Source: the human T2T-CHM13v2.0 reference genome, Homo sapiens. From it: a stretch of 64,000 bases of DNA. The stretch's first letter is position 1. Every line of letters begins with the position of its first letter. This document shows, in pieces, positions 7,421-13,254 of the stretch. The stretch is taken from NCBI RefSeq assembly GCF_009914755.1, contig NC_060934.1; one strand, given 5' to 3'. The notes below the pieces were generated by a model. The model did no database searches. It had not been told where the DNA came from and saw nothing but the letters and a program-made list of their open reading frames with translations. Made by a program: the position numbers and the translations under genes.

Positions 7421-7814
<394 letters not shown>

Positions 7815-8926
7815 TCATTCATTCATTCATTCAACAATATTCATTCATACATGCCAAGTGTGCAGGCACTGTCTTATGCTCTGGGAGCAGATGACAGTGT
7901 TCATTAACACAAGGCTTTAGTTCCAAACCCTATTCTTTCGGTGCTACCCAAAGAGAGCTGACCTGAATCTAGAGGAGCCTCTTCAACTAGAACGACTGCA
8001 AAATTCTGCCCCATGACACCTTTCTCCTTGGCCACCTAGTTCCTTCCTTCCTGACCTTCTCCAGGACACAGTACTTGCTTGAACTTGTTGACATCTCAGA
8101 CACAATTTTTACAGGGCACAATCCAGAAAGAGAGGGCTTCCAAGAAATGCCAATCCCAGGGTCAGTCCTCCAAGAGAAGATTCCAGAATGGGTGACTTAA
8201 AGAGGCTTTGTCATGTGGACTCTGAAGTCATTGACCCTTTGCTCCACACCCAGCTACTCAAGGACAAAATGTCCTCAGCTTTGACCCTCTTCTGCAACAC
8301 AGTGACATTTAGGTTTTTTTGTTTGTTTGTTTGTTTTTGTTTTTGTTTTTGTTTTTCCTGCCCAGCACACCTTAAGGAGGACTCAGGTAAAAGGAGAGGG
8401 ACTAGAAGCCCTTTTGTAGGGTTTCATTTGTGACCATGGAGATCCAGCTTCAGAGGTAGACATCGGACACTTTTGCTTTAGTCTCTGGTCATCCACTTTT
8501 AGCTTCTCTGTCCTTTCTTTTGGTAAGGTCGCTGACTGGCTAGATTGATTAAAGTGTATTCTATTTCTGGACTGATAAAATTTTGTTTTGAAGGCAACCT
8601 GAGCTTTTTGGGTGGACATAGGATTCACTGGTCTCCTTGAGGTCTTTCAGGTTAATGACTTGTGGTGCGTCATCAGATCACATTAGACTTGGCCTTAGAA
8701 TGATTAGATACCAAGCTTATAAGAATCTTTGAAGACATTAAGGCTAATTCCTTCTTTTGTCTCTCTATTTATCTCTTAAATCCCCTCTGCCACACTCTGA
8801 GATATAGTTGTCTGACCTCCTTTTGAACAGTCAGTGACAGGGACTTCTCTGTCTCAAGATGGCCCAGTCAGTCCACTGATAGCTCTAATGGACAGAGTTC
8901 TCCTGTGATGGGAACCTGGTTTCAGC

Positions 8927-11107: not shown

Positions 11108-11484
11108 CTTTTATTTTATTTTAATAGTTTTGGGGGAACAGATGGTGTTTAGTTACATGGATAAGTTCTTTAGTGGTGAGTTCTGAGATTTTGGCACACC
11201 TGTCACCCAAGCAGGGTACACTGTACCCAATGTGTAGTCTTTTATCCTTCACCCCACTCCCAGCCTTCCCCCCGAGTCCCCAAAGTCCATTGTATCATTC
11301 TTATGCCTTTGCATCCTCATAGCATAGCTCCCACATGTCAGTGAGAACATACAATGTTTGGGTTTCCATTCCTGAGTTACTTCACTTAGAATAACGGTCA
11401 CCGGTTCCATCCAGGGTATTTAGGCTCGTTCCATATTTTTGCAATTGCAAATTGTGCTGTTATAAACATGTGTGTACAAGTGTC
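11108..11484 (-). mobile_element. L1PB1-like 3' fragment with TSD
   Basis: L1PB 3'UTR (AGTTCTTTAGTGGTGAGTTCTGAGATTTTGG); TSD CCAAGAAAGAC(T/C)TTT on both sides; internal deletion near 11415. Confidence 0.9.
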
Positions 11485-11541
11485 CCAAGAAAGACCTTTT
11501 AAAATAAGAACTCTGTGCTCCGAATGGTGAGAAAGTCACAC

Positions 11542-12407
11542 TGTGGTAGGGTGGATAATGGCCCCTCAAAGATGCCTACATCCTTATATGGCAAAGGGAA
11601 CTTTGCAGCTGTGTTTAAATGAGGGGTTTTGAGATGGGGAGATGGTCCTGGATTATCTGGGTGGGCCCTAAATGTGATCACAGGCATCTTTGTAAGAGGT
11701 GGCAGAAGGAGATTTGACTACACACAGGATAGGGTGATGGAATGACAGAAGCAGAGATGGAGAGATGTGTCGGAAGAAGGAGGAAGGGGTTGCAAGCCAC
11801 AACAACAGGTCACCACTAAAAGCTTAAAAAGGCAAGGAAATGGTTTCTCCCCCTGGAGCTCACAGCAGTAACCAGCCTTGCTGACACCTTGACTCTAGCC
11901 CAGTGAAACTGACTTCAGACGTCTGACCTCCAGAACTGTAAGGGAACAAATCTGAGTGGTTTTTTGTTTGTTTTTGTTTTTTAAATTTGAGTATATTTAA
12001 TTTATTGAAAATTTTAAATTGGATATTATTTGTTGCTTTTATTTCCAATGGCAGTGGCATTTGGAAGTGAAATTTAAAATGTAGGATTAGGAAGTAGCTT
12101 TCACGTTTACCTTTATTTTTTGCAAATACCTATTCATATACATAGATTTTCAACTATGTTTTCATAGGATTTAATGGAAATTGTCAAAAATGTCTCAAGA
12201 TAATTATGATTTTTAAATGTTATATTTAGAATTACTGATCAATTTATGATCAAAACTGCAAACAATAATTGTAAATATTTTGAAGTTGGTGATACTGTAT
12301 TTTTCCCCACTATTTGCTACTCTGATTCTTTTTTTTTTTTTTTACTTTAAGTTCTAGGATACTGTGTTTGGGGTAATTTGTGGCGGCAGCAATGGGAAAC
12401 TAAGATA
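11542..12407 (+). mobile_element. MLT1D-like MaLR LTR, interrupted at 11960-12362
   Basis: TGTGGTAGG..ATAATGGCCCC start; CTGACCTCCAGAACTGTAAG; resumes GTTTGGGGTAATTTG..GGAAACTAAGATA. Confidence 0.85.
11960..12362 (-). mobile_element. Severely 5'-truncated L1PA with about 345-bp 3' transduction
   Basis: Minus strand: GTATCCTAGAACTTAAAGT (L1PA terminus), A15, unique DNA, AATAAA (12006-12001), second A-rich tail (11982-11960). Confidence 0.8.
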
Positions 12408-12669
12408 ACTGTCTTTACTTTTTAAAGTAATTAGAGGAAAGTTGATGAAAATCTTGGAGACTGATCAAAGGAAACTACAATATAACTACCAGAATGACCA
12501 AAGAACAAATGAAAAAGTCTAATCATGAAAATGAGGTGTGGAAGTGAATTTTAAGTCTTCTCTATAAGAAGAAAATGTAGGATTTTTAAATGCCTCTATA
12601 GTGTAAGAGGAAGATGTAAAGATGATACCGATTTTGTGACAAAATGAGAGCAGTAGAGTCTGAGTTATT

Positions 12670-12830
12670 TTAGAAGTAGTGACCTTAAGGTCACCTTATT
12701 TGTCCTGTCAGATGAGCAAAATTAGACATAGAGAACTCAAGGAAACGTTCAAAGTCAGACAGTAGGACCATAGCGAGCTGGGACCACACCTTGCTTCCTG
12801 CCTCCAAATTTCATGCCTCCAGCGCTTTTT
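12670..12830 (-). mobile_element. MIR/MIR3 relic
   Basis: Degenerate core CAGATGAGCAAAATTAGACATAGAGAA..CAAAGTCAGACAG. Confidence 0.5.
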
Positions 12831-13254
12831 CTCCTACTCCAGGATTAAAAAGTTTGCAAATAATCTGTATGAAAAAGAAAAGTGGTGCAGATGATTCAAT
12901 TGCACCTCAGTAACAGGCCTATATCCAGTCTCCTTTATGACACTGTTTCTGAGTCTGAACAAGGGAGCAGGAAGACATTACTGAAATTTGCAAATGCTAT
13001 TAAACTAGGATGTGGCGTTAGCTGTTATGGAAAAAAAAATAATGAATTTAGAAATATTCTTAAATTTTAGAAATTTTTAAAAGTAGATTTACTTAGAGAA
13101 AACTTAAAAAAAAAATCCAGTAGCCAAAATAGCATTATTTTGAGAGATCTGGAAACTTGGCCTGTTTTTCCCATTGTACAGAAAGGAAAATGTCTTTGAG
13201 GTGAAATATCCCAAATTTTTAGTCCCAAAAGTGTTCATATTACTTAGAAATGTG

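What the first reader, a model, noticed from the sequence alone, without database searches (positions are those of the whole stretch)
11960..12362. L1-mediated 3' transduction of about 345 bp of foreign DNA, inside an MLT1D LTR
Seen: the MLT1D breaks after GTGGTTTT and resumes at ACTGTGTTTGGGGTAATTTG. On the minus strand the insert reads: about 19 nt of L1PA terminus (GTATCCTAGAACTTAAAGT), A15, about 345 bp of AT-rich non-repeat DNA (12328-11983), AATAAA at 12006-12001, 18 nt, then a second degenerate poly(A). Known: two tails with a downstream poly(A) signal is the signature of L1 read-through into its source flank. Inference: MLT1 carries TTTT/AA here, the canonical L1 endonuclease site. About 5 bp (AAGCC in my recalled consensus) are lost with an AC microhomology, so the site shows a deletion rather than a TSD. 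The captured DNA tags a long-dead source L1 elsewhere in the genome and would look like unique sequence in annotation.
Basis: partly seen in the sequence, partly recalled or inferred. Interest (0 to 1): 0.75.

Follow-up and report, generated by a model that had tools for sequence, protein, structure and literature searches.

The report
L1-carried NRG3 intron copy in LTR
A 403-base insert inside an ancient retroviral LTR in a KIAA1217 intron is a retrotransposed copy of unique NRG3-intron DNA attached to the last 19 bases of an L1 element; it is an ordinary kind of event, but the L1 expected at the source is missing.

Summary
The structure is real and sits at the stated coordinates. On the minus strand it reads: MLT1-type LTR, 19-nt L1 3' terminus, A15, 346 nt of AT-rich DNA ending AATAAA+18 nt, a 23-nt degenerate poly(A), then LTR again.

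The 346 nt has one paralog, in NRG3 intron 1 (chr10:82,916,025-82,916,376, minus). Homology starts right after A15 and stops at the cleavage site. So the window copy is an RNA-derived copy of that locus, with 11 substitutions and one 6-nt indel (3.18%).

The nearest same-strand L1 ends 2.0 kb upstream, has a different terminus and tail, and spans only about 4.5 kb with an inverted 5' end. The 19-mer also belongs to old L1 terminus classes (9.6-12.7% pairwise substitution), while the copied segment is young.

- **Best reading (about 0.5):** 3' transduction from a progenitor L1 never fixed at the source.
- **Rivals:** a later insertion into the tail of an old 19-nt L1 stub, or a template switch.

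Primate presence/absence data would decide. This is an ordinary kind of event with no evident function.

The parts
11542..11963 (+). Left (5') part of a solo LTR of MLT1 type (ERVL-MaLR). The last four T's (11960-11963) may belong to the LTR or to the insert's tail.
   Evidence: 2,386 first-look candidates, of which 40 were scored; the other copies are 69-80% identical, and one hit reaches query base 3; colinear weak matches to the SAMMSON exon-2 LTR that PMC11007075 names MLT1D. The start coordinate is approximate.
11960..11982 (-). 3' poly(A) tail of the insert, 23 nt, interrupted by three C's.
   Evidence: The source locus has T8A6 at this point instead, so the tail is not templated there.
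11983..12328 (-). 346-nt retrocopy of unique DNA from NRG3 intron 1 (chr10:82,916,025-82,916,376, minus strand, antisense to NRG3).
   Evidence: only two places in the genome; exact homology boundaries; 11 mismatches plus one 6-nt indel, 3.18%; no exon and no other gene at the source.
12001..12006 (-). AATAAA poly(A) signal, 18 nt before the tail. It is conserved at the source, where a T-rich stretch follows the cleavage point.
12329..12343 (-). Internal pure A15 between the L1 terminus and the copied segment.
   Evidence: The source has ...TTTAAG here, so the A run is not from the source; the boundary is ambiguous by the three bases AAG.
12344..12362 (-). L1 3' terminus, 17-19 nt. The outer two bases could equally be LTR sequence (microhomology).
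   Evidence: 423 copies against 0 for the control; the copies lie at L1 3' ends before A-rich tails; the comparator element contains the printed '3' L1Hs primer' string. AC at that LTR position in 5 of 10 copies.
12361..12405 (+). Right (3') part of the same LTR; the end coordinate is approximate.
   Evidence: the right anchor aligns just beyond the left anchor in other copies; bases 7-41 of the piece align colinearly to the print-named MLT1D copy.

Best explanation
What is shown: the L1 retrotransposition machinery (target-primed reverse transcription) inserted a cDNA into a T-run/AA site of an old MLT1-type solo LTR, in an intron of KIAA1217 and antisense to the gene. The template RNA came from the minus strand of NRG3 intron 1, 59 Mb away on the same chromosome. 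It was cleaved and polyadenylated 18 nt after an AATAAA.

What is inferred as most likely: the RNA was a read-through transcript of an L1 that sat immediately upstream of the copied segment at the NRG3 locus. That L1's end ran straight into a pure A tail without its own AATAAA, so transcription continued to a signal about 340 nt downstream. Reverse transcription stopped 19 nt into the L1, and the 5' end was joined with 2 nt of microhomology and loss of about 5 nt of target. The progenitor itself was a polymorphic insertion that was never fixed, so the reference now shows the empty source site.

Dating: 3.18% between copy and source is about 1.6% per lineage. With a recalled hominoid rate of 1.0-1.2e-9 per site per year this gives roughly 13-16 My. 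The Poisson range on 11 changes gives about 7-28 My.
For: - **Layout.** L1 end, A15, unique DNA, AATAAA+18 nt, second tail.
- **Single source.** Homology begins right after the A run and ends at the cleavage site; the source has no tail.
- **Endonuclease-like source boundary.** On the sense strand the boundary reads TT|AAGA, one mismatch from the recalled L1 endonuclease site TT|AAAA. Only 5.6% (8,370 positions) to 7.6% (2,326 positions) of random 5' ends on that strand give a boundary this good.
- **Target in the LTR.** In the 10 of 29 LTR copies holding the commonest 11-nt gap between the anchors, 8 have a T-run in the first four bases and 7 have AA next.
- **Print priors.** 3,669 L1 transductions against 274 processed pseudogenes among 19,166 somatic events (PMC7058536, passages). 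Non-reference progenitors are documented (PMC9311842, passages).
- **Short L1 stubs are rare.** 0 of 59 sampled L1 ends are 50 nt or shorter. This makes the nested rival, which needs a pre-existing 19-nt L1, improbable a priori.
- **No AATAAA at the junction.** The A15 junction lacks one, which fits obligatory read-through.
Against: - No L1 abuts the source in T2T-CHM13. Within 200 kb upstream, none of the 3 same-strand L1 termini has a directly attached A run.
- No sibling copies of the 346 nt exist.
- The terminus class looks older than the event. Median pairwise substitution divergence of the last 419 nt:
  - window-type copies: 12.7% (11.9% for those with a direct A run);
  - CCCAG type with direct A run: 10.6%;
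  - C..G types: 9.6-9.8%;
  - the commonest, youngest class (C..A): 5.6%;
  - the 346-nt pair: 3.18%. P(11 or fewer changes) is 0.015 if the true value were 6% and 0.0003 if it were 8%.
- L1 3' UTRs probably mutate faster than this AT-rich DNA, and L1 copies also differ through their different masters, so the gap is overstated. It still remains.
- The 8 other genomic copies with the same terminus plus at least 8 A's are old, at 72-85% identity to the NRG3-intron L1.
- The second tail carries three C's while A15 is pure.
Confidence: 0.5

Rival explanations
1. Two sequential insertions (nested). An old L1 insertion truncated to about 19 nt plus its A tail already sat in the LTR. Much later, a 5'-truncated retrocopy of the NRG3-intron RNA was inserted into that A tail in the same orientation. 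Its target duplication is hidden among the A's.
For: This accounts for the age gap without special pleading: old terminus classes at 9.6-12.7% pairwise against 3.18% for the copied segment. It explains why no L1 abuts the source. Pure A runs of 16 or more do persist in old L1 copies (12 of 12 loci, though they were chosen for that feature). The degenerate downstream tail could be the remainder of an old tail. Sequential versus contemporaneous arrival is a recognised distinction (10.1101/2025.02.02.635956, section 20 read).
Against: It needs a very short L1 stub as target, and 0 of 59 sampled L1 ends are 50 nt or shorter. The endonuclease-like hexamer at the source boundary would then be a coincidence of 5.6-7.6%. 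The RNA would have to be an unannotated transcript mobilised in trans, a class about 13 times rarer than transductions in the PCAWG counts.
Confidence: 0.2
2. Template switch in a single event. Reverse transcription started on the poly(A) of the NRG3-intron RNA and copied 346 nt. It then jumped to the poly(A) tail of a second RNA that ended in an old-type L1 3' end, and copied A15 plus 19 nt before joining to the target.
For: It explains an old-type L1 end in a young event, and a source without an L1. L1 chimeras with other RNAs are documented: 253 candidates, attributed to RNA ligation or template switch (10.1101/2025.02.02.635956, section 20). RNA carrying exactly this terminus plus an A run was mobilised recently elsewhere (the L040/L045 pair is 99% identical). 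The bases AAGA at the junction allow microhomology.
Against: In the catalogue I read, the extra RNA sits at the 5' side of a longer L1 part, and most cases are small RNAs. An arrangement of 19 nt of L1 plus an A run 5' of a cellular RNA fragment is not described in the sections read. The source-boundary hexamer would again be a coincidence. Prior frequency is low.
Confidence: 0.12
3. Read-through from the existing L1 2.0 kb upstream of the source. The distal 346 nt would be mobilised either as an orphan transduction into an old L1 stub's tail, or after splicing or an internal jump.
For: A same-strand L1 of the youngest terminus class does lie 2.0 kb upstream of the source. The 2-kb spacer is old repeat plus unique DNA, not a later insertion. 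Orphan transductions are documented (PMC7058536).
Against: That L1 spans only about 4.5 kb and its 5'-most 0.5 kb is inverted relative to its 3' part (one comparator copy). It therefore has no 5' promoter region. Its terminus differs at 2 of 19 bases, and its tail is ATAATAATAAT..., not A15. No GT donor follows its tail, so splicing cannot produce the observed junction. Several AATAAA hexamers lie in the spacer.
Confidence: 0.05

Closest known systems
L1 3' transduction (partnered, severely 5'-truncated)
   Same: L1 3' end, internal A run, unique downstream DNA, a downstream AATAAA with the cleavage site shared by the source, a second poly(A) tail, and insertion at a T-run/AA target. The 346-nt length lies within the 7-997 nt reported for polymorphic human transductions (PMC9311842, abstract).
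   Different: No L1 stands at the source in this genome. There is no TSD, but a deletion of about 5 nt. Only 17-19 nt of L1 remain. The L1 terminus class looks older than the copied segment.
Orphan L1 transduction
   Same: Unique DNA from downstream of an L1 locus is mobilised with little or no L1 sequence (definition in PMC7058536).
   Different: A recognisable L1 terminus and A run are present here. The only extant upstream L1 is 2 kb away and is a 5'-inverted, truncated copy.
Chimeric L1 retrogenes (U6/L1 type; template switch or RNA ligation)
   Same: Two RNA-derived parts in the same orientation, inserted at one site.
   Different: In the catalogue read the non-L1 RNA lies 5' of the L1 part and is usually a small RNA. 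Here the L1 piece is 5', is only 19 nt long and carries its own A run.
MLT1 LTRs of the ERVL-MaLR group (host element)
   Same: Dispersed family with thousands of candidate copies at 69-80% identity. Colinear with a copy that print names MLT1D.
   Different: The subfamily could not be assigned. This copy lacks a stretch near its 5' end relative to most relatives: most hits begin at query base 43.

Membership tests
L1 3' transduction | L1 3' end plus A run, followed by non-L1 DNA and a second poly(A) tail, all in one orientation | tested here: met
   L1 identity of the 19-mer.
L1 3' transduction | Poly(A) signal 10-30 nt before the second tail, with the cleavage site shared by the source locus | tested here: met
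   AATAAA plus 18 nt in both copies. Homology ends exactly there, and the source continues with T8A6.
L1 3' transduction | The transduced DNA has a paralog lying immediately downstream of an L1 in the same orientation | tested here: not met
   A paralog was found, but unique DNA lies upstream of it. The nearest same-strand L1 ends about 2.0 kb away. This was tested in one genome only; a lost polymorphic progenitor cannot be excluded.
L1 3' transduction | L1 part and transduced part arrived in one event (same age) | tested here: inconclusive
   346-nt pair 3.18% against terminus classes at 9.6-12.7%. Nineteen nt cannot be dated on their own, and primate presence/absence is not available.
L1 3' transduction | Hallmarks of endonuclease-dependent insertion: T-run/AA target and a target-site duplication | tested here: inconclusive
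   The target motif is supported by family counts (8 of 10 with a T-run, 7 of 10 with AA). There is no TSD; at least 5 nt of target are missing.
MLT1 / ERVL-MaLR solo LTR | Homology along its length to copies named MLT1 in print or in a repeat library | tested here: met
   Five colinear matches of the left piece and one of the right piece (73-87.5% identity) to T2T chr3:70,049,180-70,049,623. This corresponds to the SAMMSON exon-2 LTR listed as MLT1D in PMC11007075. It is one comparator, and the hg38-to-T2T offset was inferred from the match itself and from the gene start.
MLT1 / ERVL-MaLR solo LTR | Assignment to subfamily MLT1D rather than another MLT1 subfamily | not testable with these tools
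   No repeat consensus library is on hand, and building a consensus is barred.
Chimeric retrogene by template switch | The 5' partner is a (usually full-length) cellular RNA fused to a 5'-truncated L1, Alu or mRNA 3' part | tested here: not met
   The 5' partner here is 19 nt of L1 3' end with A15, compared with the description.
Processed retrocopy of a host gene | The source is an annotated, usually spliced, transcript | tested here: not met
   No exon and no minus-strand gene is annotated within chr10:82,905,000-82,927,000.

The most novel reading that the evidence does not exclude
The insert records an unusual route: either a retrocopy that homed into the A tail of a 19-nt L1 stub, or a reverse-order L1 chimera in which the enzyme jumped from a cellular RNA onto the poly(A) of an RNA ending in an old L1. 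Under either route, an unannotated polyadenylated antisense transcript of NRG3 intron 1 existed in the germline of an ape ancestor and was mobilised in trans.
Probability: 0.3. Interest if true: 0.3.

Novelty: new member of a known kind. Interest (0 to 1): 0.2.

Why it matters
The direct consequences are small. The insert is deep in a KIAA1217 intron and antisense to the gene, with no exon in the window. Its AATAAA is on the non-coding strand.

Its value is as a worked case. A unique-looking 346-bp stretch is absent from the RefSeq list of masked repeats of 100 bases or more, yet it is a retrotransposed duplicate of NRG3 intron DNA. Such stretches can mislead mapping and conservation analyses.

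If the transduction reading holds, the insert is the only surviving trace of an L1 that once sat in NRG3 intron 1 and was never fixed.

The case also shows that the 'two tails plus downstream signal' signature alone does not separate a single transduction from sequential insertions. Source-site and age checks are needed.

Tried and rejected
**1. Spliced read-through.** The source boundary ends in AG, so I looked for an upstream L1 end followed by an A run and G|GT. A scan of 210 kb (chr10:82,910,000-83,119,999) for the 19-mer with up to 4 mismatches found 3 minus-sense termini and 1 plus-sense terminus. None of the minus-sense ones has a direct A run. Rejected within 200 kb.

**2. The 2-kb-upstream L1 as donor.** Rejected, for the reasons given under the rival explanations.

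**3. A later insertion separating that L1 from the source segment.** The spacer is an old repeat (70-76% identity, first ~850 nt) plus DNA with no other match. Rejected.

**4. Sibling transductions.** None; there are only two places in the genome.

**5. A young L1 sub-lineage with the same peculiar end.** Of 423 window-type termini, only 9 are followed by at least 8 A's. The 8 others are old. The one 99% pair (L040/L045) has its next-best relatives at 86-88%. Rejected.

**6. Known RNA family in the insert.** Rfam gives 0 matches at E up to 1.

**7. The reverse direction, with the window as source.** Rejected, because only the window copy has tails.

**8. Not examined.** I did not open supplementary tables. 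Those of PMC9311842 and of 10.1101/2025.02.02.635956 may list this locus or comparable cases. I did not search print for this specific locus, so I make no claim that it is unpublished. The L1 subfamily ages, mutation rates, the L1 endonuclease consensus and my reading of the LTR as MLT1 type by eye are recalled, not from calls.

Full report
**Observation**

An LTR-like sequence runs on the + strand to 11959 (...GAGTGG), is followed by T's, and resumes at 12361/12363. Read on the minus strand, the 403 nt between contain:
- a 19-nt stretch (12362-12344);
- a pure A15 (12343-12329);
- 346 nt of DNA with 24.9% G+C (12328-11983);
- AATAAA at 12006-12001, 18 nt before the tail;
- a 23-nt A run interrupted by three C's (11982-11960).

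The window lies in a KIAA1217 intron, and no exon is annotated in it (gene table given with the finding).

**The 19-mer is an L1 terminus**

It occurs 423 times in the genome (213 + 210), against 0 for the reversed control. In 15 of 15 sampled places it is followed by an A-rich tail. In 12 of 15 the preceding DNA aligns over at least 300 nt with the last 419 nt of a long repeat in NRG3 intron 1.

That repeat is L1 by print. A 19-nt string from it occurs in 9 papers, all on LINE-1 (listing). One of them prints it inside the '3' L1Hs Primer' (PMC4297411, passage).

**The 346 nt and its source**

The genome holds one other copy, at chr10:82,916,025-82,916,376 on the minus strand, at 95% identity with E 2.9e-157 (matches in closed regions are not shown). 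This lies in NRG3 intron 1, antisense to NRG3. No exon and no other gene lies within 82,905,000-82,927,000.

The alignment shows three things:
- Homology begins directly after the A15. The start is ambiguous by AAG, because the source reads ...TTTAAG|AATCAG.
- Homology ends exactly 18 nt after the shared AATAAA.
- The source continues with T8A6 and unrelated DNA, while the window copy continues with the A-rich tail.

The window copy is therefore the RNA-derived copy and the NRG3 locus is the source. The two differ by 11 substitutions and one 6-nt indel, 3.18%. Rfam finds no RNA family in 11400-12600.

**The host element, the 'old virus remnant'**

The left piece (11540-11959) found 2,386 first-look candidates. 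The 40 that were scored include the window itself; the other copies are 69-80% identical. Most hits begin at query base 43 and one reaches base 3. This is an old, abundant dispersed family.

I named it from print. PMC11007075 (passages) lists an MLT1D LTR forming exon 2 of SAMMSON and calls MLT1D part of the 'old ERVL-MaLR superfamily'. Using the T2T gene start, I fetched 1.5 kb around the expected place. The two window pieces give five plus one colinear matches, at 73-87.5% identity, spanning about 444 nt there.

This shows an MLT1-type LTR. It does not separate MLT1D from its sister subfamilies, which needs a repeat library that I do not have. No internal retroviral genes are present, so this is a solo LTR.

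Age:
- Pairwise identity near 72% to even the best-scoring relatives implies roughly 0.17-0.2 substitutions per site per lineage.
- At a recalled mammalian rate of about 2e-9 per site per year, that is of the order of 80-100 My.
- A preprint title reports MLT1D elements in cattle (listing only), which fits an element older than the spread of placental mammals.

**Target site**

I aligned the two anchors separately to 29 other copies. The commonest number of bases between them is 11, seen in 10 of 29 copies; under strict anchoring it is 5 of 9. Among those 10:
- 8 have at least three T's in the first four positions;
- 7 have AA next;
- 5 end in AC.

The window can supply at most TTTT and AC of these 11 nt, so at least 5 nt are missing and there is no target-site duplication. 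Projection onto the print-named MLT1D copy also gives 5 nt.

**Is there an L1 at the source?**

No, not where the transduction model needs it.
- Upstream of the source segment lies unique DNA.
- A same-strand L1 ends about 2.0 kb upstream. Its terminus differs from the window's at 2 of 19 positions, and it continues ATAATAATAAT... rather than with a pure A run.
- The RefSeq mask and my reading place its other end at about 82,922,898, so it spans about 4.5 kb.
- Relative to another L1 copy nearby, its 5'-most 0.5 kb is in the opposite orientation to its 3' part (one comparator at 66% identity). It is a 5'-inverted, truncated copy.
- The 2-kb spacer is an old repeat (70-76%, first ~850 nt) plus DNA with no other match, so it is not a later insertion.
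- A scan of the 200 kb upstream found only two further minus-sense L1 termini, both with ATAAT-type tails. This also removes a spliced read-through model.

**Age of the L1 piece against age of the copied segment**

A degenerate search over the two variable positions found 25,726 termini against 0 for the control. In the 100 listed rows I counted about 71 of the NRG3-L1 type (C..A), 25 of type C..G, 2 of the window type and 2 of the fourth type.

| Terminus class | Median pairwise substitution divergence, last 419 nt |
|---|---|
| C..A | 5.6% |
| C..G with ATAAT tail | 9.6% |
| C..G with direct A run | 9.8% |
| CCCAG type with direct A run (one mismatch from the window; common) | 10.6% |
| Window type with direct A run | 11.9% |
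| Window type, any tail | 12.7% |

The window's terminus, with its directly attached A run, therefore belongs to old classes. The 346-nt pair stands at 3.18%. P(11 or fewer changes) is 0.075 at a true 5%, 0.015 at 6% and 0.0003 at 8%.

L1 3' UTRs carry more CpG than this DNA, and L1 copies descend from different masters, so these numbers overstate the gap. The gap remains even so.

Only 9 of the 423 window-type termini are followed by at least 8 A's. The 8 others are old, apart from one 99% pair discussed under 'Noticed in passing'. No young lineage with this end was found.

**Weighing the explanations**

For a single 3' transduction from a progenitor that was never fixed:
- The layout is canonical.
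- The source boundary reads TT|AAGA, one step from the recalled endonuclease site. Random 5' ends reach this in only 5.6-7.6% of positions.
- Transductions are far commoner than trans-mobilised cellular RNAs: 3,669 against 274 of 19,166 somatic events (PMC7058536, passages).
- Non-reference progenitors are documented (PMC9311842, passages).
- The nested rival needs a 19-nt L1 stub as its target, whereas 0 of 59 sampled L1 ends are 50 nt or shorter.
- An L1 whose end runs straight into A's lacks its own AATAAA, which would force read-through.

Against it:
- The source site is empty.
- There are no siblings.
- There is an age gap.
- The downstream tail is degenerate while the internal A15 is pure.

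I put the alternatives as follows:
- transduction from a lost progenitor: about 0.5;
- sequential insertion into an old stub's tail: about 0.2;
- a template switch onto an RNA ending in an old L1: about 0.12;
- involvement of the 2-kb-upstream L1: about 0.05;
- other routes: the remainder.

That the insert is an L1-machinery retrocopy of the NRG3 locus is close to certain.

The method that would settle this is arrival order of adjacent segments in multi-species alignments. It is described in 10.1101/2025.02.02.635956 (sections 19 and 20 read). That preprint also places L1PA4 after the ape/Old World monkey split and L1PA5 at about that split.

**Date of the insert**

The pair is 3.18% apart, about 1.6% per lineage. 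At a recalled 1.0-1.2e-9 per site per year this gives roughly 13-16 My. The Poisson range on 11 changes gives about 7-28 My. The insert is much younger than the LTR that hosts it.

**Verdict**

This is an ordinary class of event with no evident functional consequence, so interest is low.

Noticed in passing
L040 (chr1:168,032,901-168,034,227) and L045 (chr18:78,674,492-78,675,818): Two old-type L1 3' ends are 99% identical to each other over 819 nt, while their next-best relatives are 86-88%. Both have the window-type terminus followed directly by A15 or A13 and the same ~15 nt of flank. In the chr18 copy a second A15 and unrelated DNA follow. This looks like a recent re-mobilisation of an old L1 3' end from the chr1 locus with a very short 3' transduction.
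   Followed up: partly
L003/L047, chr10 about 82,918,395-82,922,898 (NRG3 intron 1, minus strand): An L1 of the commonest terminus class spans about 4.5 kb. Its 5'-most 0.5 kb is inverted relative to its 3' part when compared with another L1 copy. That is the pattern expected of a twin-primed, dead-on-arrival insertion (mechanism recalled).
   Followed up: partly
L003 about 7540-8390 (chr10:82,917,540-82,918,390): The ~850 nt immediately downstream of that L1 belong to an old dispersed repeat: 1,421 first-look candidates, with the scored full-length matches at 70-76% identity. The family was not named.
   Followed up: no
window 11326-13021: The RefSeq soft-mask list has no entry between 23,943,326 and 23,945,021. 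Neither the MLT1-type LTR nor the 403-nt insert is flagged as repeat there.
   Followed up: no
L054, chr10:82,998,507-82,998,541 (plus-sense L1 end in NRG3 intron 1): An L1 end of the CCCAG type with a direct A16 lies 82 kb from the source segment, but on the opposite strand. It cannot have been co-transcribed with the source segment in the needed orientation.
   Followed up: yes
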